Of a stretch of 64,000 bases of DNA, positions 16,432 to 32,520 are shown in pieces. The notes beneath the pieces were generated by a model. The model saw nothing but the letters and a program-made list of their open reading frames with translations, ran no database searches and was not told where the DNA came from. Positions within the stretch are counted from its first letter, which is position 1; the number at the start of each line of letters is the position of its first letter. The position numbers and the translations under genes are program-made. Origin of the DNA: Saccostrea echinata (Eukaryota); contig NW_026889758.1 in the NCBI RefSeq assembly GCF_033153115.1, forward strand, positions 28,210,001 to 28,274,000, in the 5' to 3' direction.

Positions 16432-16959
16432 ACCAGAAATATGTCAATAGCACATGAATGCCCCGCCGAGGGTATATTAGCCATGCAAAATTGTAATACA
16501 AATTGAGAAAAGTGAGGTCAAGGTCAAAGGAAAGGTCAAGGTGAAAAAATATTGATGCAGTTGAATAACTTATATCAGTATGTATCAGCATATGAAGTTT
16601 GACACTAATTTAAGAAAAGTGAGGTTAAGGTCAAAGCAGGGTCAAGGTCAAAAATTGTTGATGCAGTTGAAAAGGTTACATCAGTATGCATTAGCATATG
16701 AAGTTTGATAAAAATATTATGAATGGTTTCTTAAAAACTGAGATAAACATTAATTTAAGAAAAGTGAGGTCAAGGACAAAGGAAATGTCAAGGTCAAAAA
16801 ATATTGATGCAGTTGAATAACTCTCATCAGTATGTATCAGCATATGAAGTTTGATAACACTATCTTGAATGGTATCTTTGAAACTGAGCTAAAAACTTAT
16901 TTAAGAAAAGTGAGGTCAAGGTCAAATGAAAGGTCAAGGTAAAAAATATTGATGCAGTT
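16432..16959 (-). mobile_element. Truncated Helentron-like (HINE) element with ~146/107-bp satellite units
   Basis: Reverse complement of the 3' part of the 31266-32520 element (GAATGCCCCGCCGAGGG; repeated GAGGTCAAGGTCAAAGG). Confidence 0.75.
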
Positions 16960-17040
16960 GCTTCGCGGATTATAAAGCGTAAACTGACCCAAACCAGGTT
17001 ATACTCAAATAATTTGGCCAAGAATTAGAGTCATTCCCTA
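16960..17040. repeat. Half-hairpin remnant of the H1 hairpin-ended element family
   Basis: Near-exact reverse complement of 19211-19291, beginning at the GCTTCGC apex. Confidence 0.85.
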
Positions 17041-17379
17041 ATTATTGAAAAGCTGATTTTCAGAACCTGAGGATCGGACTACCTTAAGAGGATTATGTAA
17101 AGGATGACTGCACTGAACGAGACATAAAATTTGCGACAAAATAAATTTTCCTGTAAATTGTAAAAATGGTTAACATCTAAACAACAACTTTGTGTATAAT
17201 TATATTAATTAAAATACTGTACTCGCGAAGTACAAATCCGGTTTCATAGCGGGGGTTATAATCCAGAATTTCTTGAATCTCCATACGAAAATGAGGATGT
17301 CCATTTTTTAATGACTTAATTAATACTGTCAACTCATGTTTGTCTATTGTTCTCCATTTAATGGTAGTTGTATATCTGT

Positions 17380-17585: not shown

Positions 17586-17802
17586 AATAATTTTGTGTCA
17601 AAAGGAGATTTTCAAACAAACGTTTTGTATTGTTTGTTTGTTTTTTTAATATTCGTTCTCTCTTTTAGTACCAAGCATTGTAACCTATTGGATATATATT
17701 ATATATAATTCACAAAGTGATTTTTCACCTCATGTAATGCTCATGTAAGTTACTGCGAATTAAATTTGACCCCCGTTCACACGGGGAATTTAATGCGAAT
17801 TA

Positions 17803-18340
17803 TGCCCTGTTCACACGGAGAGTTTAATTCGAATTAAACGTAAGTTACTGCGAATTAAATTTGATCCGCGTTCACACGGAGAATTTAATGCGAATTAGTT
17901 TAATTCGAATTAGTTTACTGCGCATTAAATTACTTCGCATTAGCTCCGTGTGAACGCTAAGCGAAGCTAATTCGAATTAAATTTTGACGCATGCGTAAGG
18001 GCAGAATTAAGTCACAGGCCACATGCCGATGGTCAAATATAGGTACTTGTGCTATTTTTGAGTGGTAAACAAAGGAAAATTATGTTAATCACTAAAATGT
18101 GTACAGACACTATGACATTACGTCAAATGTATATCTATTCTGCACAATATGACGTGATTTGTAAATGACGTCATAATAGCCTCACTGAATAGACTTGTTG
18201 TAGAAATTACATTATAATTCGCATTAGTTTACTTCGCATTAGCTGTCGTGTGAACGCATTTTAATTCGCATTAGTTTAATTCGCATCATTTTACTTCGCA
18301 TTAATTTACTGCGAATTAAACTCTCCGTGTGAACAGGGCA
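17803..18340 (+). mobile_element. PIF/Harbinger-type MITE copy B (538 bp)
   Basis: TIR TGCCCTGTTCACACGGAGAGTTTAATTCG / ...AAACTCTCCGTGTGAACAGGGCA; TTA TSD on both sides. Confidence 0.92.
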
Positions 18341-18455
18341 TTAGTTTAATTCGAATTAGTTTACTGCGCATTAAATTACTTCGCATTAGCTCCGTGTGAA
18401 CGCTAAGCGAAGCTAATTCGAATTAAATTTTGACGCATACGTAAGGGCAGAATTA

Positions 18456-18993
18456 TGCCCTGTTCACACGGAGAGTTTAATTCGAATTAAACGTAAGTTA
18501 CTGCGAATTAAATTTGATCCGTGTTCACACGGAAAATTTAATGCGAATTAGTTTAATTCGAATTAGTTTACTGCGCATTAAATTACTTCGCATTAGCTCC
18601 GTGTGAACGCTAAGCGAAGCTAATTCGAATTAAATTCTGACGCATGCGTAAGGGCAGAATTAAGTCACAGGCCACATGCCGATGGTCAAATATAGGTACT
18701 TGTGCTATTTTTGAGTGGTAAACAAAGGAAAATTATGTTAATCACTAAAATGTGTACAGACACTATGACATAATGTCAAATGTATACCTGCTCTGCACAA
18801 TATGACGTGATTTGTAAATGACGTCATAATAGCCTCACTGAAAAGCCTTGTTGTAAAAATAAAATTATAATTCGCATTAGTTTACTTCGCATTAGCTGTC
18901 GTGTGAACGCAATTTAATTCGCATTAGTTTAATTCGCACCATTTTACTTCGCATTAATTTACTGCGAATTAAACTCTCCGTGTGAACAGGGCA
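18456..18993 (+). mobile_element. PIF/Harbinger-type MITE copy C (538 bp)
   Basis: Same TIRs; flanks are TTA and ATA (imperfect TSD). Confidence 0.9.
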
Positions 18994-19787
18994 ATAAGTC
19001 ATATGCCACATGTCGGTGGTCAAATATAGGTATTTGTGCTATTTTTGAGTGGAAAACAAAGGAAAACTATCTTGATCACTAAAAACTGTACAGACACTAT
19101 GAAATTATGTCAAATGTACATCTGCTCTGCACAATGTGACGTGATCTGCAAATGACGTCATAATAGCCTAATAGTAGAAATTTATGCCCTGTTCACACGG
19201 AGAGTTTAATTTAGGAATGACTCTAATTCTTGGCCAAATTATTCGAGGATAACCTGGTTTGGGTCAGTTTACGCTTTATAATCCGCGAAGCGGATTATAA
19301 AACAGCGTAAACTGACCCAAACCAGGTTATCCTCGAATAATTTGGCCAAGAATTAGAGTCATTCCTTATAATTTAATTCTAAAATCATTAAACAACTCTG
19401 GGTGTAAAATTTCGTTGCTTTTTATTAGTTCAAATTTGCCGCTCAATAATACAACCCTAGTAACGGAAGTGATGGGAAGCGAGGGGAGGTAAAAACTGAT
19501 ACATAGTCCTAGCCATGTTTTTTGTTTACATGTGGTAAGATCCGAGTTACTGTTTGAAGTTAAAGGTACATTTATTAAATCTGGAATTTTCCATGAATCC
19601 CGAGGACTGGAAATGAGAGGATTGCATGGATACAGACGATTCAGCTGGTTGTCAGGGGGGTGTGTCCCCATACCAAACCAGGTTATACAGAAATAATAGA
19701 CTGTTTCACGATAATTTCCGCACATGCGCATAAAGACTTCCGCAGGGCAAACTACTTTCAATTCTTCCTATGAGTGATCAAAACGGA

Positions 19788-20170
19788 ACACTTATTTACA
19801 CGTCCCAAATAAACAAATTTTATATGAAACTGTGTTTGTTTTTTGTGTTTTTGTAATTATTACATTAAGTTCTTTTGTTTTTTATTTAAATATACGAGAT
19901 GTTTTGTAAAATAAATTTTAAATTCAAGCATGAATCTTGGTGTACTACGGACACTTCCGCGTTTAAAATCAAGATAGGACACTTATTTACACGTCCCCAA
20001 TAAACAGAATTTATATGAAATTGAGTTTGTTTTTTGTGGTTTTGTAATTATTACATTAGGATCTTTTGTTTTTATTTAAATATACGAGATGTTTTGCAAA
20101 AATAAATTATTAAAGCGTCGATTTTAGTGCACTGCGGGCACTTCCGTGTTTACTAATCAAAAGATGGCGA
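19788..20170 (+). repeat. ~191-bp tandem duplication of the YqaJ gene promoter region
   Basis: ACACTTATTTACACGTCCC...CACTTCCG...AAGAT repeats at ~19788 and ~19979. The second copy ends in AAGATGGCG, which contains the start codon. Confidence 0.85.
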
Positions 20171-22936
20171 CCCGGGAGATTTCAAAAGATCCAAAGAGGA
20201 AAAATAAGGAAGTTCTTCAAGAAGTGCCTATCAAATATTTTGCATCTTCCCTGGAAGGTGTTGTACCAGACATTCCAGGTCACGAAAACCTCCCCCCTTT
20301 GCAGTTAGCCTCGTATATTACGGTAACGCCCACTTTCATGCCTCAGATTTCCTTCCAACAAATTTATCAACATATGATTCTCAGGAAAACAACAGATGGG
20401 AAGGAAGTTAATAACCACAGGGGTCTTGACAGAGCCATCAAACATTTCGAAGCTGGTGATATTTCACAAGTTATGATAGCACAGGTAAATTTAAGAAAAT
20501 AAAATTACAAGTGTACACATAATAATTAGAAGAACAATATGATTCTTTTGTCCTTGCACAAACACAATATTCTATCAACATTTTGTATTTCCTAAAATGA
20601 GTTATGAATTTAAATTAATTACAAACTGATAAATTCTTAGCTGTAATAATGTATCCCTCTCCTATAATTTTTATTTGGTGTTTTTAGGAGAGGGCTAGCC
20701 CCCCCCCCCCCCCAAGAAAAAAAACCCACAACAATGGTGAGGGCTAATTATTGCAGCTAATAAATTGTATGTGTATATGAAAATTGAATATGTACATGCC
20801 CACATGTTTATACATGCCCACATGTTTATTTAGTGATATGAAAATGCAAGGTTGCTTACATTTAGATTGACGACTCTGTGGATTATATAAGGGGATCCTG
20901 CTTGGCCTCCATGAAAAAAATCAAGTACCATGTATATATTTGTGTAGAAAACAAGCAAAAAGTCTGCTTTGCCTACTGTGAATGTCCAATTGGGTAAGGT
21001 AGCATTTTTAATAAAATAAAAATTAATTTGATAAAATCCCTTTCTTTATCTTGACTCCTTTCATATATACAGCAAGCATTAACTTCTAGTCTACATTGTA
21101 TCTATAATTAAATTTCATTAAAGTTTGGCCCAGTCATGCAGCCACATAGGCGGTCTACTTTTTTACATTCACCACCTACAACTTAGTGAAAAGCTAATGT
21201 CGGATAGTGCCACCTCTAAATCATGTCAATGGAATGTCCCCCGCCCTATGAAAATGGAACCAAAGCCCTTGAAAGACTGGAACTTAAGTCGACCCAAGTT
21301 GAGCTCGGAAGGCCAGGTTGAGTTCAGGGAAAAGAAACAGATTGACTTTGATCCACGTCACCCAGATCAGAGGGAATTTCAACTTGCTCACTCAATTGAA
21401 CAACTAAAGATTCTTAAGAAAATATTCCCCAAAACTGGTGAGCTTGTAAATTGGATATAGATATGGTATTACAATGTAGTGAAAAATTATGAGATTTGAT
21501 GTTTTAGAATATCTTATATTTTTACACCAATAACACTTCGTAAATACAGCTGATCTTCGGTATCTCGAACACCGATATCTCGAATACCATGGATATGTCG
21601 ATGTCAATTGGAATTGCCAGCCACTTATTCTTTAGGTATTTAACCCTTGATATCTTGAATACTCGGATATCTCAGTTTTTTTTCTTGGTCCCATTGAGTT
21701 CGAGATAACGAGGTTTGTCTGTATTTCAAATAATATAAAATGATCAATAAATCATGCCTTGCAACAGTGAATGTATTTATTAGGTTCTTACAATAAACAA
21801 AAGATCAAATTTAATATATGATTTAAAATGTCAGGTATGTGTCATTTATGGATGATCCCAGATGAAACACCAGAAGTAGTAAAAGAAGTGGAGGTACAGA
21901 CATCTGAGGATCCTATGGAGATGGCAATGAAGGCACTAATTCTGTCCAAGGAGAACTGTAAGAAAAAATAAACACAGAATTCAGATTATATAATTACTTG
22001 TAACTGATCAGAATTCAAATTTATTTTCCATGTTTTTATAATAGTGCCGATGGCAATCTCAATTGATGAAAACCTCAGCTTATTCATTGAGGAGAGAACC
22101 CAGGGCCAAAGATGTTGTCCAATATGGAGAGAGCTGCACAAAGGGAGAATAACCAGTTCTCTCTTTGGTGCAGTTCTCGGCTCTGGTGCTAACCCTAACT
22201 CCCTGGTAGACCAGATAATTAAAGGATCTGGTCTAGACAGGTACAGTACATTTCATGCAAAAAATTTAACATTTTGGAATTAAAACACTTATTGATTACA
22301 TTCATGAATGTTTATTTTAGATACCAGTCACTGCCCAAAGCAATACAGTGGGGCATAGACCATGAAAAGGAAGCCCTCCAGGACTATCTCTGCCTCCAGA
22401 ATTGCGTTACTAATCTAACAGTGGAACCATCAGGACTTACCATATATCCATCTCATGCATTTTTAGGTGCCTCTAGTGATGGATGGATATATGATAAGTC
22501 CATGCCAGTGGGTAACCAGAAAGGGGTGCTGGAAATTAAATGTCCTTATTCTATTTCCAATGAAGTCATCACAGACAGAGAGGTACAACAGTAGCATTTT
22601 TTTTTTTCCCATTTATTCAGCTTAATTGTTTTTTGAATTGCTGATCTACAGAAATTTAATTTATAGGTGCATGAACTTGCTGGACAAGGTGGTTTCTGTC
22701 TGGAGATGACTGATGAGGGCCCTCGCTTGAAAAGATCCCACAAATACTATGCCCAGATTCAGGGAGAGATGGCCATCATGGGTTGCTCATGGGGAGATTT
22801 TGTGGTTTGGACAGCTGCCTCTCAGAGCAATTGCTTTATCGAGAGAGTTTATTTCGATGTTACCTTTGTAACTTCAATGATGCCCAAACTTGTAGAATTT
22901 TTTGTTAGTTATATTTCACCTTCTTATACTAAATAG
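20164..22936 (+). CDS. ISL2EU accessory protein: SWIM zinc finger plus YqaJ/lambda-exonuclease-like PD-(D/E)xK nuclease, ~537 aa; exons 20164-20484, 20866-20993, 21124-21437, 21835-21957, 22045-22240, 22321-22582, 22667-22936
   Basis: All introns are GT-AG and phase-compatible, giving 1614 nt open. SWIM CECPIGLAQSCSH. YqaJ motifs TQGQ..W...HKGRITSS, WGIDHE, LGASSDG, LEIKCP, YYAQIQGEM. Confidence 0.9.
21547..21721. mobile_element. Tc1/mariner-pogo-type MITE in YqaJ intron 3
   Basis: TA|CAGCTGATCTTCGGTATCTCGAAC ... GTTCGAGATAACGAGGTTTGTCTG|TA. Confidence 0.8.
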
Positions 22937-23174
22937 TAAAACTCCATGATACCTCATTGAAACCTGTGTTGATTGACCAATTTGTCTTTGCATAATATTT
23001 CTGATAATTTTAGCCATCAGATCAAATGAGGACCTTATCATTTTAACTTTATAGAAGAAAACATTCAAGAAGTAGTGTTCAACATTTCCACTTCTGTCTT
23101 CCCACCTATTCAATTCATACCATTATGCAGGCGTTAAAGGAATACTTGAAGTTTTAAATTGTTCTTTAACTTAC

Positions 23175-26122
23175 CTAATTCTCAATCAAAGGGACATCAA
23201 AGTTTGTAATCCAACAGCAAACAGCAAACATCTGTGACGCTAATGGCACTAAAGAAAGAGAAAGAATACCATCAAAAATATGAAAATTCTTTACACGACC
23301 TATAGCTCTTTCTACATGAATTCTTAATTTAGCAATATCTTGAGTTTCGAAAACATCTTTAGTAGAAAATTGGTTAGAAGAAGAACGAAAAGGTGGGATA
23401 TTCAAAGTGCAGCCCTTTTTTTCTAGCAAATCTCGTATAGTAAAACCCTTGTCTGCCATCACCCCATCCCCTTCCTCCAGAAGTTCAAGAAAGAGGGATC
23501 GCTCTATCATCTGGCGATCTGACACCTTCCCACCAAAGCTCTCTGAAACAAAAGATATAACACCAGAGGGAGTGATTCCAATAAGAAACTTTAAAGTGGT
23601 ATGATGCTTGTAGTGTGAAAATGACTGATTCTGATTAATCAAACTGCTAGATCTCTGAATAAATATTTCTGTACAATCAAGTATAACTCTAAGATTTGAA
23701 AAAGAATGAAAGCATGATGGCATATTTCTCTGTATAATATCCCTAGATGGAAAGGGATTAAGCTCTTTCAGTTCCTTGTAGAGAAGGCACACCCAAGTTG
23801 CAAAGTATTGCGAAAAGGTCCCTGTTGACACTCCAAATCTCTCTGCCATGTCCTGGACATACAAGCCAACCTTTAAATATTGAAGACACATATAAAAAAT
23901 TTAAATATTAAATGAACCCTTAAATCAAAAAGCATGGAACAATTAATATAATATAATATAATATTGTGTTTCTCCTATGATTACCTTAAGTCTCATCAAG
24001 GTTGCTAAGAATTGATCAATAGGCTCCAAAGCCATGCACCTTCTAGTTCTGCTCCTTTCTTCTGGGGTTGAGGAACTGCCTCTCCAGTATACCATTCTCT
24101 CACATTTGGGAGCCAGATAACTGAATATAAAAGAATTAAGTTTTTAATACATCAAGGGATGGGTAAATGAATGGATAGATAAATTAGATGCTAAAGTGGT
24201 TTCAAGAACATTAATAAATCATATTTTACTATATCATTCCCAACTATCTCATTGGCTTAAACTTGATCACATGATCCTGCAAATTAAACAATCATGGTGA
24301 TAACAATATACAATTATGGACTTTAGTGTAGGTCGATATGTGGTTATAAGGACTCCTCTCAAGTGATATTGACCAAAGACCCAGAAAGTGATAGCAACCG
24401 AGCTTGCGAGGTCGCTATCATTTTCTGTGTCTGAGGTCAACATCACTTGACATGGCTCCTTATAACCAAACTTACCATTCATTTATATTAGTTATATTAT
24501 ATAATCACTCAAAATGAATATCCTGACAAAGTCCTAACTGAACAGACTTGGCTGACATTAAGTCACAATGGTAAACACATGCTTCTTATATTATGACGTC
24601 ACATTCTACACAACTTTGGTGGAGCCAAAGTGTGAGTCATGCGATGTCATATTCCACCAATGTGCTTTTGCGTCAATATCACAAAAGGACGAATATCATT
24701 TGACATCCTTTCAGCCAATGAAAATTACAGAAATAATCTTATATAATATTTGTCAATATTGACTGGATGTTCCTATATACATACTTGAAGAGCCATAAAA
24801 AAACTGCAAAGGTTGGCAGTCCCGTATAAAACTTTGTCATGGCATCATCATCCTTGATCTTTGCCACAGACCATTTACTATCTTGCAGTCTTCTCAACTC
24901 AGACTGGAGCTTCCTGTTCTCAAGTAACAAGGGATCTGGATCACATTGTACACCTACAATCATTTAATGAATGTTTACCCTTGAATAGACAATACATGTA
25001 TGTCTTTTTTACATTGATGAAATTAAGGAATGACTTGTCACGTAGGCATATTTCATGAAGCGAGCTAGCACTTCATGAAAAATATGCCTACGTGCTAGTC
25101 TGTGTGATCTACACACCAATAATTCACACAAAACTTAAAAACATTCCTTATATTTACATTTTACATGTTCAAAATCACCAACAATATACTCATTGTTTGA
25201 ATTTCTCGCTGTCCTATATCGTTACATTCTTTATTAATGTCTCTGTATCCTCATTGTGACGTCACTTTAGCACGAGTTTCTCAGTGCATATTTCTACGCG
25301 TGAGTATACACTAAAATGGTATTCATATCAATTTCACAGTTGGCTTAGTAGAAAAACACAGCAAATGTAAATATTAAAAACTGATTTTTGATATACCCTC
25401 TGTAAATTTCGTTTTGTCATCCTCTCAACTCTTTTTACATCCACAGCCTTCTCCTTGTAAGAAAAAAGTGTTGGGACATAATTAGTATCTTCTGGATCAT
25501 CACTATGCCACCCTAAAACAAAATGCTCAGAGCATATGCATGTGTGGTCACTGGGTGTGAAATCCTTTCTGTTGATGGCCTTAATCCACAGACGCCGTTT
25601 TCTGGTATCCTTTGGGAATCTTTATTGATAAAAAGCTCGAAATAAATACATGTATTTAGTACTGTAAATCTCTAAAACATACACACACAGAAACACCAGT
25701 ATAATTATATTTTGTGTAGAATTACGTTAATTTCCAAAATGTGCAATAGAAAGACTGTTTGATTCTAGATCTACATATTTATCCTGTGATGAACTGTATA
25801 TTTATCCTGTGATGAACTGTAATTATGTAAATAATTAAGTAAATATATAGAAATATATAGTCAACCATTTATATAGGTCGCAACTACTTTGCATCTCAAC
25901 AAAGGAAATAGTATAATATTATTACATAAATGTGAAAATTAGTGGACATACCCTTATGTTATATATACATGTACACTGTACAAAGGTATGTTTGAGATCA
26001 TTTTATCATGAATTATTTGGAAGAAAAAAAATGATAACATACCTAAAAAAGTGAAGTCCCTTCTCCTTTCCCTTTGTGTCATCACGATTTGTACATCCAA
26101 ACACGCAACACGTTCTTACCAT
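23175..26122 (-). CDS. ISL2EU transposase: THAP, HTH and DDE (Harbinger-like DDE_Tnp_4); exons 26122-26043, 25619-25397, [linker exon unresolved], 24953-24785, 24120-23985, 23870-23175
   Basis: THAP MVRTCCVFGC...FPKD...W...CICSEHF...VPTLF; FYTGLP; HTH LMRLKVGLYVQDMAERFGVS; catalytic LDCTE, MADKGF, RIHVERAIGRVK. Phase mismatch between 25397 and 24953. Confidence 0.88.
24301..24748. mobile_element. Hairpin-ended element H2 in a transposase intron
   Basis: Imperfect palindrome 24342-24467. Internal junction TATATTAGTTA|TATTATATAA (24484-24504) is complementary to the ends TAACAATATA and TTATATAATA. CCAAT at 24715. Confidence 0.65.
25024..25373. mobile_element. Hairpin-ended element H3 in a transposase intron
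   Basis: Palindrome 25039-25094. Internal CATTCCTTA|TATTTACATTT (25142-25161) is the exact reverse complement of right end AAATGTAAATA joined to left end TAAGGAATG. Confidence 0.7.
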
Positions 26123-26888
26123 GCCTAATGTTTATCGAGTAAACCGAAAGCGCAAGTTTCATTAAAGTGAAAGTTTGCCCTGCATGTGCGAAGAGCAGGC
26201 TCGCAGTTACCGTGAAACGGTCTATTTGTGTTCCTTTTTGGATATTAACCAATCAGAGGCTAGAATACAAACAAAATTGAATTATTTCGAATTAAACGTA
26301 AGTTACTGCGAATTAAATTCGATCCGCGTTCACACGGAGAATTTAATGCGAATTAGTTTAATTCGAATTAGTTTACTGCGCATTAAATTACTTCGCATGA
26401 GCTCCGTGTGAACGCTAAGCGAAGCTAATTCGAATTAAATTTTGACGCATGCGTAAGGGCAGAATTACGTCACAAGCCACATGTCGGTGGTCAGATATAG
26501 GTACTTGTGCTATTTTTGAGTGGAAAAAAGGGAAAATATGATAATCACTAAAATGTGTACAGACACTATGACAATGTCAAATCAGTGGTCAAATGTATCT
26601 GCTCAGCACAATATGACCTGATTCGCAAAATGACGTCATAATAGCCTTACTGAATAGCCTTATTGTAGAAATAAAAATTTAATTCGCATTAGTTTACTTC
26701 GCATTAGTTGTCGTGTGAACGCAATTTAATTCGCATTAGTTTAATTCGCATTAGTTTACTTCGCATTAATTTAATTCGAATTAAACTCTCCGTGTGAACA
26801 GGGCATTAACATTTTAATTCGCATTAGTTTACTTCGCATTAGGTGTGAACGCAATTTAATTCGCATTAGTTTAATTCGCATCATTTTA

Positions 26889-27408
26889 TGCCCTGTTCAC
26901 ACGGAGAGTTTAATTCGAATTAAACGTAAGTTACTGCGAATTAAATTTGATCCGTGTTCACACGGAGAATTTAATGCGAATTAGTTTAATTCGAATTAGT
27001 TTACTGCGCATTAAATTACTTCGCATTAGCTCCGTGTGAACGCTAAGCGAAGCTAATTCGAATTAAATTTTGACGCATGCGTAAGAGCAAAATTAAATCA
27101 CCTGCCACATGACGGTGGTCAGTTATAGGTACCTATGCCATTTTTAGTGCAAAACAAAGGAAAATTACGTTAATCACTGAAATGTGTATAGACACTATGA
27201 CATTATGTCAAATGGATTTGCTCTGCATAAGGTGACGTGATTTGAAAATGACGTCAGAATAGCCTTACTGAAAAGCCTTACTGTAGAAATAAAATTTTAA
27301 TTCGCATTAGTTTACTTCGCATTATCTGTCGTGTGAACGCAATTTAATTCGCATTATTTTATTTCCTATTAATTTACTGCGAATTAAACTCTCCGTGTGA
27401 ACAGGGCA
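26889..27408 (+). mobile_element. PIF/Harbinger-type MITE copy E
   Basis: Same TIRs; TTA TSD at 26886-26888 and 27409-27411. Confidence 0.9.
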
Positions 27409-29381
27409 TTACTTCGCATTAATTTACTGCGAATTAAAATCTCCGTGTGAACAGGGCATAACATTGTGAATACTTAATTTGTCACGCGACTTGTAGGGTA
27501 GCATGAGTTTTGAATGTTATGTTCTTTCCTGACTGATCTACTAGGGAATTGTGTTCGAACATGTAAAATTGTCAGGCATTGATTTACGATCTTCTTCTTC
27601 TACATCTTTTTGCTCTTATTGAAACCTTTGTTGAAACCTGGTGCCATATATGGGAAAAAAAAAAAATCATTCTTACAGTATTAGCTCCACCTCTCCTGCA
27701 TATTTACCAGTATAGATCAGACAATGTAATTTCCAAAGCAGCGAGGGCGAAAAAAGAACAACTTATTTTATTGCATCACAGTCATCAATCATTTCAAATT
27801 GACGTGAAAAGGAGTTGAATTAGGTAAGGCATGGAAGTTACAGAAGCCACCGAAAAAAAAATCAGTCCTAAGTGCAGTCGTCCTTTTTTCTGCAATGATA
27901 GCAATCGTTATTCCCTGTATTAACAAATACGAATTTTTTTATATTTATATCTGCATAAGCAATTCAGGGAAAGAACGTAAAATATTGTATAATTGGGTCG
28001 TAGATACATTGATGGAAGAGCCTGCTTCTCCATAAAATCTTTCAAACAGAGGTTCTAATATAGATTATTTATTGTTAATGCGAAAAGGGCAATCGTTTTT
28101 TTTTTTATAAGAAATAGAGAAAATATTTAGTTGATGTAGAATCTATGCATAATAAAAATATCTATAAATAAAATATGTCAAAAGAGTCTGTTAGACATTT
28201 TTTTAAAAGATAAAATAATTTTTATGAATTCCTCCTTAAATGCATATTTAAGCAATATGCTGTTAAGTTAAATAAATATTTACTTGAAGTTTCCGCTTTT
28301 TACTATACACGGAAAATTCATGTGATGCATATTGTAAATTACTTGGCGTTTGAGACAGAATAATAGTATCATTTGCATGAAATATCAACAGTTTCATAAA
28401 AATGAAGCCCATCATTTAATATACTTACATGTATCAACGGTAAAATAAGGGAATAATTAACACACATATGTTATCAAAACTGTAACCTGAGATAAAATAA
28501 ATTCTTGTACATTTCTACTCTAGGGCAAATATGGACAAATCGGGAGAAGACGTGAAGGGTTAGCTGGGTCACTTAATAGACAATGACCCCTGGTTGGACA
28601 CATGTATATTGGTCCAAACTACGTTGAATCATGAATATGCAAAAATGATATCTCTATTACATAGGAAATGTGAATAAGTTATATCATCTAATATAGTAGA
28701 GGGTGAACATGGCTGAATTTCAAACTCTTTATGCACAAATACATGTAACATCACCTGCGGGGACTTTGGTCATGGACAGTATCACACAGTGGTGTGTGTA
28801 TATATACCAGTAATTAGACAGAAATAAATTACACGGCCAAGTGATCTGGCGATAAGCAACTTGCTTTACTCCTTTCTGTTGAAAACAAAATTTTACCTTT
28901 ACATTTAAAAAGAAAAAGATCAGGATGAGACCAATACAACAACACTAATGTACTTATCCCATGAGCACTGAACAGTTGAAGTTAATGATATCAACCGATT
29001 GCCAAAATATTAACCTTTTCATTTACGACAATGAAAACACAACAATGCATGCCTAGCACTCATAGTCCTTCGTAACGATGATCGAAAAAATAATATAATT
29101 TCATTTGCATTTCATTGAAAATTTCAAATATGAAAAATTTACAGTCTTAACTATAGAAACGTACTGATTTAAAATGTTTTTTCTGTTAAATATAGATCCG
29201 ATAGATGTCTTTGTCGCCGTTTATTTCCCGGTATACTTACTCACTTCGGGTCACCATTCTAACCAGTACCCTGACCAATACACGTTCTTGACAAAACATC
29301 ACGTAACATAGTAACAAACCATCGATCAAATCACCGCAATTATACAGAACTTTCTTATCGAACACATTTATTACGACATGG

Positions 29382-31265: not shown

Positions 31266-32520
31266 TTATGCCCCGCCATGAATATGGCCGGGGCATGTAG
31301 TGTTTGTCATGTCCGTCTTCCGTCCTTCTGTCCTTCCGTCACACTTTGCGTTTAGCTCTGTTCAAAGCTCAGTTTCAAAGAAACTATCCAAGATATTTTC
31401 ATCAAACTTCATATGCTGATAGATATTGATGAGAGCTATGCAACTGCATCAACATTTTTTGACCTTGACCATTCACTTGACCTTGACCTCACTTTTCTTA
31501 AATTAGTGTTTAGCTCAGTTTTAAAGATACCATTCAAGATAGTGTAATCAAACTTCATATGCCGATAGATATTGATGAGAGCTATGCAACTGCATCAACA
31601 TTTTTGACCTTGACCTTTCACTTGACCTTGACCTCACTTTTCTTAAATTAGTGTTTAGCTCAGTTTTAAAGATACCATTCAAGATAGTATAATCAAACTT
31701 CACATGTTGATACATACCGGTGTAAGCTATTCCACTGCATCAACATTTTTTGACCTTGACCTTTCTTTTAACCTTGACCTCACTTTTCTTAAATTAGTGT
31801 TTAGCTCAGTTTTAATGAAACCATTCAAGATATTTTTAACAAACTTCATATGCTGATACATACTGATGAGAGCTATTCAACTGCATCAATATTTTTTACC
31901 TTGACCTTTCCTTTGACCTTGACCTCACTTTTCTTAAATTAATAAGTTTTTAGCTCAGTTTTAAAGATACCATTCAAGATAGTGTTATCAAACTTCATAT
32001 GCTGATACATACTGATGAGAAGTATTCAACTGCATTAACATTTTTTGACATTGACCTTTCCTTTGACCTTGACCTCACTTTTCTTAAATTAGTGTCAAAC
32101 TTCATATGCTGATACATACTGATAAGAGCTATTCAACTGCATCAATATTTTTTGACCTTGACCTTTCTTTTGACCTTGACCTCACTTTTCTTAAATTAGT
32201 GTTTATCTCAGTTTTAAAGAAACTATTCATAATATTTTTATCAAACTTCATATGCTAATACATACTGATGTAACCTTTTCAACTGCGTCAACAATTTTTT
32301 GACCTTGACCTTTTCTTTGACCTTGACCTCACTTTTCTTAAATTAGTGCCAAACTTCATATGCTGATACATACTGATGTAAGCTATTCAACTGAATCAAT
32401 ATTTTTTGACATTGACCTTTCCTTTGACCTTGACCTCACTTTTCTCAATTTGTGTTAAAATGTTGCATTACTAATATACCCTCGGCGGGGCATTCATGGC
32501 CTATGGACATATTTCTAGTT
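31266..32520 (+). mobile_element. Helentron-like HINE element with 8 internal satellite units (~146 and ~107 bp)
   Basis: 5' TTTATGCCCCGCC...CCGGGGCAT hairpin, CCGT microsatellite, tandem GACCTTGACCTCACTTTT units, 3' CGGCGGGGCATTCAT...CTAGTT. Confidence 0.8.

What the first reader, a model, noticed from the sequence alone, without database searches (positions are those of the whole stretch)
17745..27458. Self-targeting MITE: four same-family copies inserted in one copy, all in the same orientation
Seen: copies B (17803-18340), C (18456-18993), D (19185-26805) and E (26889-27408) each sit at a different TTA inside host copy A, in A's orientation, each preceded by TTA on the top strand. No other copy occurs in the 64 kb, although TTA sites are everywhere. 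The element is full of GCGAATTA/TAATTCGC repeats. Inference: transposase bound to these repeats steers new insertions into the element itself, a homing or safe-haven strategy (or local hopping) that can build satellite-like arrays.
Basis: partly seen in the sequence, partly recalled or inferred. Interest (0 to 1): 0.7.

Follow-up and report, generated by a model that had tools for sequence, protein, structure and literature searches.

The report
Mini-transposon attracts itself and other transposons
A 538-base non-coding jumping element receives new insertions of its own family, and of unrelated transposons, at least 100 times more often than chance across this animal genome, likely because its repeated motifs keep the surrounding DNA open; the shared orientation of the four nested copies here is not a genome-wide rule.

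Summary
The nest is real. Four copies (B–E) of a 538-bp PIF/Harbinger-type MITE (M) sit at four TTA sites in host A, with the host continuous across each junction. Genome-wide, 13 of 93 position-sampled copies outside the window lie inside another M copy, 140–380 times chance.

The arrivals are independent: the host is never the insert's closest relative (0 of 33 pairs). Flanking sequence preference does not explain it. Orientation is not biased to 'same' (5 same, 8 opposite).

The pull is not self-specific. An unrelated Helentron-like family has 6 of 90 sampled copies inside M (not significantly below the self rate), about 18 of 93 M copies carry foreign insertions, and non-nested M neighbours lie within 172 bp. 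D's 7-kb insert is a Helentron-like element holding an ISL2EU transposon.

Best reading: M is a general landing pad, likely through accessible chromatin, with a possible self-tethering increment. The mechanism is inferred; no autonomous partner or long reads were found. MITE self-nesting is known from rice. This scan noted self-nesting of other families in this genome, but not this element.

The parts
17745..17802 (+). Host copy A, piece 1 (consensus 38-95; first 37 bp and left TSD missing)
17803..18340 (+). Copy B, full-length M, TTA/TTA duplication, at host site 93; 1.7% from consensus; nearest relative on another contig
18341..18455 (+). Host copy A, piece 2 (consensus 93-207)
18456..18993 (+). 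Copy C, full-length M, TTA/ATA duplication, at host site 205; 1.9% from consensus
18994..19184 (+). Host copy A, piece 3 (consensus about 205-406, small deletions)
19185..19211 (+). Copy D, left 27 bp (TIR), TTA before it; host site 404
19212..19697 (-). Helentron-like non-autonomous element X, part with the ~160-bp hairpin end (19207-19368); boundary T ambiguous, no duplication
19698..26223 (.). ISL2EU DNA transposon inserted in X; 17-bp TIR with 2 mismatches, AT duplication in A|AT|T context
22223..22594 (+). YqaJ exonuclease exon of the ISL2EU element (PF09588, E 6.8e-10)
23175..23900 (-). HTH_Tnp_4 + DDE_Tnp_4 transposase exon of the ISL2EU element (E 2.6e-9, 1.1e-44)
25334..25621 (-). THAP-domain exon of the ISL2EU transposase (E 7.2e-8)
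26224..26285 (-). Element X, other end with 11-bp subterminal inverted repeat
26286..26805 (+). Copy D, remainder, TTA after it; 4.5% from consensus; its 3' TIR reads like the 5' TIR over 35 bp
26806..26888 (+). Host copy A, piece 4 (consensus 404-491)
26889..27408 (+). Copy E, TTA/TTA duplication, at host site 489, the genome-wide hot site; 6.3% from consensus
27409..27458 (+). Host copy A, piece 5 (consensus 489-538, 3' TIR, followed by TAA)

Best explanation
M is a 538-bp PIF/Harbinger-type MITE whose resident copies take up new insertions of their own family and of unrelated transposons far above chance, likely because each copy forms a patch of accessible DNA in the germ line. Shown: independent arrivals; at least 100-fold enrichment for M and for Y; spread of the effect to about 170 bp of unique flank; no regional effect beyond that; no explanatory target sequence. 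Inferred: a protein (the Harbinger Myb/SANT helper or a host factor) binds the 13 palindromic 12-bp motifs of the CpG-rich element and keeps it nucleosome-poor, so any integrase finds it easily. Also inferred: incoming M complexes are steered further to TTA sites at motif edges in the 3' subterminal region (459, 474, 489, 504; 15-bp period), which would give the roughly twofold, not significant, self excess. A was hit four times over a span of ages, and D was then hit by X, and X by ISL2EU.
For: Self-nesting: 13 of 93 (CI 8-22%) against 0.04-0.10% expected. Host never the nearest relative in 33 pairs, mean rank 0.57. Solo target preference is about 1 bit above null and M's own TWA sites weigh 0.66x background. 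Y in M: 6 of 90 sampled, 106-286x. X in M: 1 of 30 sampled and 7 of 832 by one context pattern. In the M-sample loci, 8 of 8 close-family X/Y copies lie inside M (about 50 kb) and none in about 225 kb of flank, p about 1e-6; one 73%-identical X relative lies in flank. About 18 of 93 M copies carry foreign inserts of several kinds, counted by hand, against 1-3 of 59 X/Y copies (Fisher p 0.0008-0.015). All 8 non-nested back-to-back M neighbours are 3-172 bp apart. 29 CpG against 17 expected, with no excess CpG decay; motifs are better conserved (2.7%) than other subterminal (4.2%) or central bases (6.7%).
Against: No chromatin, binding or expression data were available; accessibility is inferred only from where insertions fall. 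No autonomous Harbinger with M's ends was found among 50 of 1597 DDE candidates, so the motif-binding protein is unidentified. M's self-insertions are concentrated (11 of 13 in the 3' region, 5 of 13 at one site) while foreign ones are spread across the element, which points to a self-specific component. X and Y are younger than M (median 2.4% and 2.2% against 3.8%), which inflates the 18/93 versus 1-3/59 contrast and weakens the 0 of 93 M-in-X/Y result. Six of the 8 close neighbours come from loci picked by BLAST rank or junction pattern; only 2 are from the unbiased sample. Three of the 13 nested ends come from one cluster (L092).
Confidence: 0.55

Rival explanations
1. Self-tethering: Harbinger helper protein bound to resident motifs captures incoming M complexes by protein-protein contact; foreign insertions are only a side effect.
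For: Self rate is the highest measured (14% against 7% for Y and 3% for X). Insertions cluster at motif edges in the 3' subterminal repeats (p=3e-4; site 489 p=4e-6). M is in X or Y 0 of 93 times. [quoted passage not shown]
Against: Self excess over Y is not significant (p=0.15). Helentron-like, hAT-like, TTAA-type, ISL2EU-like and SINE-like elements would not use the Harbinger helper, yet they are enriched. No partner element was found.
Confidence: 0.25
2. DNA structure: M's palindromes extrude hairpins or cruciforms, giving single-stranded or nicked DNA that many integrases exploit.
For: Copy B folds far better than shuffles (z -12.4). X and Y often sit inside the short perfect palindromes of M (positions 25-32, 416-436; partly set by my search pattern). 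D's 3' TIR looks templated from its 5' TIR (1 of 186 copies).
Against: X and Y carry much longer perfect hairpins yet show few foreign inserts and no M. The effect extends into unique flanking DNA.
Confidence: 0.12
3. Safe haven by selection, or regional TE graveyard: insertions are random but survive better in M or in TE-rich regions.
For: Proposed in print for plant MITE nests (PMC3695323 passage).
Against: It would need over 99% of other insertions to be purged. Flanks of the same loci hold 0 of 8 close-family X/Y copies, and no M neighbour was seen between 172 bp and about 1.5 kb.
Confidence: 0.04
4. Local hopping or tandem duplication from the host or a neighbour.
For: One pair of inserts in L112 are sisters (0.6% apart), and the L112 host has a near-identical outer copy.
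Against: 0 of 33 hosts rank as nearest relative. A-E differ by 2.8-8.8% and each of B-E has closer relatives at other loci.
Confidence: 0.02
5. Mis-assembly.
For: No read or contig spanning the locus was available.
Against: Five distinct sequences, each insert with its own duplication and host continuity; the same architecture recurs on many contigs. The X-without-ISL2EU joint 19695/26224 is seen in contigs of three other runs.
Confidence: 0.02

Closest known systems
MITE multimers of rice and maize (Jiang and Wessler 2001; seen only through passages of PMC5172404 and PMC3695323, original not held)
   Same: More than 10% of copies in multimers; independent insertion events; self-insertion in Castaway and Gaijin; Ditto targeted by many other families; few MITE insertions into other element classes; safe-haven reading.
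   Different: Animal genome; one family is both self-targeted and a target for unrelated classes; measured at 100-380x over a genome null, with a 15-bp-periodic hot region and a ~170-bp halo outside the element.
Tourist-like MITEs of the PIF/Harbinger group (mPing; PMC2836001, PMC4482050 passages)
   Same: TWA duplication, short TIRs, non-coding, high copy number.
   Different: Extended target preference is weak here (about 1 bit) against 9 bp in plants; autonomous partner not found; 28 of 100 duplications disagree at the middle base.
ISL2EU group (PMC4482050 passages)
   Same: The 6.5-kb innermost element has THAP-HTH-DDE transposase, YqaJ gene and A|AT|T target.
   Different: TIR begins AG, not the usual GG; it is a passenger, not M's partner.
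HINE / DINE-1 non-autonomous Helentrons (PMC4067079 passages)
   Same: X and Y have 11-12-bp subterminal inverted repeats, a terminal hairpin, T-rich insertion sites without duplication.
   Different: Hairpins are about 150 bp rather than 5-10 bp; Rep/helicase partner not sought.

Membership tests
PIF/Harbinger (Tourist-like) MITE | 3-bp TWA target duplication | tested here: met
   Of 100 full copies with TWA on both sides, 72 match and 28 differ at the middle base; nested cases with known host sequence confirm 3 bp.
PIF/Harbinger (Tourist-like) MITE | Short terminal inverted repeats, small non-coding body, many dispersed copies | tested here: met
   29-bp TIR, 538-bp consensus of 101 copies; 754 exact 20-bp ends; 1083 first-look candidates. 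Coding capacity of M itself was not scanned.
PIF/Harbinger (Tourist-like) MITE | Autonomous partner with DDE transposase and Myb/SANT gene sharing the ends | tested here: inconclusive
   None among 30 + 20 DDE_Tnp_4 loci examined of 1597 candidates; four widely spaced end pairs were M copies split by foreign inserts.
PIF/Harbinger (Tourist-like) MITE | Extended target preference beyond TWA | tested here: inconclusive
   1.95 bits against 0.93 +/- 0.15 null from 48 solo sites; weak.
Rice-type MITE multimer | Nested copies above 10%, arising from independent insertions | tested here: met
   13 of 93; host never nearest in 33 pairs.
Rice-type MITE multimer | Few insertions into other element classes | tested here: inconclusive
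   0 of 93 in X or Y, but only two families tested, both younger; some M copies do sit in other repeats.
ISL2EU (innermost element) | AT duplication in A|AT|T | tested here: met
   empty X site in L124 and in other runs
ISL2EU (innermost element) | THAP-HTH-DDE transposase plus YqaJ gene | tested here: met
ISL2EU (innermost element) | TIR usually starts GG | tested here: not met
   Starts AG; the paper says 'usually', so not treated as exclusionary.
HINE / non-autonomous Helentron (X, Y) | Subterminal inverted repeats, terminal hairpin, T-rich site without duplication | tested here: met
   hairpin far longer than described
HINE / non-autonomous Helentron (X, Y) | Rep/helicase partner sharing the ends | not tested
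   Not searched; X and Y are therefore called Helentron-like only.

The most novel reading that the evidence does not exclude
M is a portable 538-bp cis-acting landing pad: its motif array opens germ-line chromatin so strongly that under 0.07% of the genome captures 14% of its own family's and about 7% of a rolling-circle-type family's insertions, seeding transposon piles wherever it lands, and the pad would work when moved to new DNA.
Probability: 0.4. Interest if true: 0.65.

Novelty: new member of a known kind. Interest (0 to 1): 0.42.

Why it matters
Why MITEs pile into each other has been described since 2001 but, in the passages I could read, explained only by proposals such as safe havens. 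This family separates the options: sequence preference, local hopping and regional effects fail, while a short-range pull on mechanistically unrelated transposons remains. A 538-bp element with 13 defined motifs is directly testable as an insertion attractor, and if portable it could serve as a landing site for transgenes in invertebrates. The frequent middle-base mismatch in the duplications is a possible genomic footprint of donor bases carried by the excised Harbinger element.

Tried and rejected
Same-orientation rule: rejected. Local hopping: rejected as general cause. Composite re-transposition as the source of the hot site at 489: inserts there differ in orientation, host and nearest relatives; a few 'tailed' copies (L035, L115, L032) may be composites or collapsed nests. 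Extended target sequence: rejected. AT-type 2-bp duplication for M: rejected by nested cases with known host sequence. D as the autonomous element: rejected; its genes belong to an ISL2EU element with its own TIRs and copies elsewhere. L120 (M ends around a DDE gene) as partner: rejected; a 98.6% identical copy on C29 lacks M ends. Read support: the run search gave only small shares (at most 0.17) in four coded organisms and three metagenomes; laid contigs show the family in four runs at each laying but none spans the locus, and the listed joints showed no internal-site-to-terminus self-nesting joint, with most joints not shown, so this is uninformative. Papers PMC139471 and PMC2290759 were not held. 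Passages of PMC3227409, PMC8151067 and bioRxiv 2026.05.26.728016 and the abstract of PMC2872659 added nothing on mechanism.

Full report
Observation. The window lies on contig C9 of a 923-Mb animal assembly. Self-BLAST and direct reading confirm five related pieces between 17745 and 27458 and none elsewhere in the 64 kb. The family (M) has a 538-bp consensus from 101 full copies and a 29-bp TIR. B, C, D and E interrupt A at consensus sites 93, 205, 404 and 489, each with a 3-bp duplication (C's right copy has one mismatch), and A continues on both sides of each. A has lost its first 37 bp.

The insert in D. D is split after base 27 by 7.07 kb. The outer 0.55 kb is a dispersed element X (832 exact end matches) with an 11-bp subterminal repeat and a 160-bp hairpin. 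Inside X sits a 6.5-kb element with its own TIR and AT duplication, encoding THAP, HTH_Tnp_4, DDE_Tnp_4 and YqaJ domains (3 of 8 frames hit). It matches ISL2EU as defined in PMC4482050 (passages). The locus is thus four layers deep: ISL2EU in X in D in A.

Genome-wide nesting. An exact 33-bp 5' end occurs 294 times. I read all of the first 100 listed, in contig order; 97 had unique context, 17 were nested in M, 13 of 93 outside the window. In the null for the junction score, 295 of 300 random flanks scored 11 or less against a cut-off of 14; the other 5 were not inspected and may be real M pieces. Four of the 93 share one flank, giving 13 of 90 independent events; three of the 13 come from one cluster. 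With 400-1083 copies and measured TWA densities the expectation is 0.04-0.10%, so enrichment is 142-384x. Two junction patterns gave 11 and 31 matches genome-wide on many contigs, most confirmed as nests.

Orientation and sites. The unbiased sample gives 5 same and 8 opposite (p=0.58). Pooled 5' junctions give 11 same and 28 opposite, a set shaped by my patterns and possibly by loss of same-orientation nests through recombination (L035, L115, L032; inference). Eleven of 13 insertions fall in the 3' subterminal region and 5 at site 489, where E also sits. Used sites 459, 474, 489 and 504 follow the 15-bp period of the motif array.

Source of inserts. In 33 hand-picked insert-host pairs with a rebuildable host, the host was never the nearest relative among about 160 copies (mean rank 0.57); 23 of 33 inserts are closer to consensus than their hosts. 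A-E differ by 2.8-8.8%. One local sister pair was found (L112).

Target sequence. Forty-eight solo sites with matching duplications give about 1 bit of preference above null, and M's own TWA sites average 0.66 of background weight.

Not only self. A second Helentron-like family Y (344 exact 5' ends) had 6 of 90 unique sampled ends inside M (98 of the first 100 listed were fetched; 6 of 84 after merging a shared flank), 106-286x chance and not significantly below the self rate (p=0.15). X was in M in 1 of 30 sampled and in 7 of 9 context-pattern hits. Within the M-sample loci, all 8 close-family X/Y copies are inside M and none in about 225 kb of flank. By hand count, about 18 of 93 M copies carry foreign inserts, with 8-bp, TTAA, 3-bp or no duplications; the class labels hAT-like, TTAA-type and SINE-like are from memory of end structures, not from a call. 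X and Y copies are rarely interrupted (1-3 of 59) but are younger. Non-nested M neighbours lie 3, 26, 27, 54, 54, 102, 142 and 172 bp apart, none further within about 1.5 kb; those measured are not sisters.

Mechanism. Shown: a short-range pull centred on M that acts on several transposon classes. Inferred: accessibility maintained by a protein on the 13 palindromic motifs, which are better conserved than neighbouring bases, in a CpG-rich element without CpG decay. Harbinger helper proteins are Myb-like DNA binders (PMC2836001, PMC11254759 passages); that the zebrafish one binds palindromic subterminal motifs is recalled, the paper was not held. No partner was found in 50 of 1597 candidate loci. 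A self-tethering increment is plausible from the site pattern but unproven.

Side result. Of 100 full copies with TWA on both sides, 28 differ at the middle base, 17 of 50 in the younger half and 11 of 50 in the older, so the mismatch likely arises at insertion; 9 of the 28 could also be read as a 4-bp TTAA duplication. mPing is reported to leave with staggered cuts in the duplication and to carry donor TTA/TAA to Cas9-cut sites (PMC4561436, PMC11254759 passages), which would explain it (inference).

Known systems. Rice MITE multimers exceed 10% of copies, with self-inserting and foreign-targeted families and independent origins (PMC5172404 passage); carrot shows the same and cites the safe-haven idea (PMC3695323 passages). 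Nine literature searches listed no paper on this element or on an animal MITE measured as a multi-class insertion magnet; the library lacks most subscription papers, I saw listings only for most hits, and I read no supplements, where Repbase-type descriptions of M, X or Y may exist. Earlier notes of this scan describe self-nesting of other families in this genome and none matches M by sequence.

Verdict. Observation confirmed; interpretation partly supported; new member of a known kind; interest 0.42.

Noticed in passing
100 full-length M copies across loci L002-L191: 28 of 100 TWA duplications disagree at the middle base (TAA/TTA or TTA/TAA), no more often in old copies; possible footprint of donor bases carried by the excised element.
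   Followed up: partly
window 26770-26805: D's 3' end reads as the 5'-type TIR over 35 bp (two coordinated changes; 1 of 186 copies), as from template switching in a hairpin.
   Followed up: partly
window 19698-26223; C1:30028624, C52:14330515: The ISL2EU element has two other copies with an equal-scoring 241-aa DDE frame and 95% identical ends, so it was recently active; it also holds smaller repeats near 21540-21720 and 24000-25400.
   Followed up: partly
window 16432-17044: Half of an X-type hairpin abuts a ~150-bp tandem array that recurs inverted at 31366-32519; may be an array-carrying Helentron-like element.
   Followed up: no
L120:620-5235 and L302:2365-6945: A second THAP-DDE plus YqaJ-type 4.6-kb element without obvious TIRs, two copies 98.6% identical, one inside M.
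   Followed up: partly
L047, L069, L075, L076; L194, L196-L198, L333, L340, L344: One M copy and one Y copy each appear to have been amplified as passengers of a larger element (shared flank at the same junction).
   Followed up: no
L079 and L092: Two different M copies sit at the same position of a ~160-bp tandem repeat unit at separate loci.
   Followed up: no
L206/L207, L210, L358, L359, L364, L369; L238: Y and X also nest in or abut their own family (5 of 90 Y flanks are Y sequence).
   Followed up: partly
M consensus 157-166 and 364-371; hairpin loops of X and Y: M contains a GCGAAGC mini-hairpin like the GAA loops of the X and Y hairpins, and a TGACGTCA palindrome (CRE-like, label recalled).
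   Followed up: no
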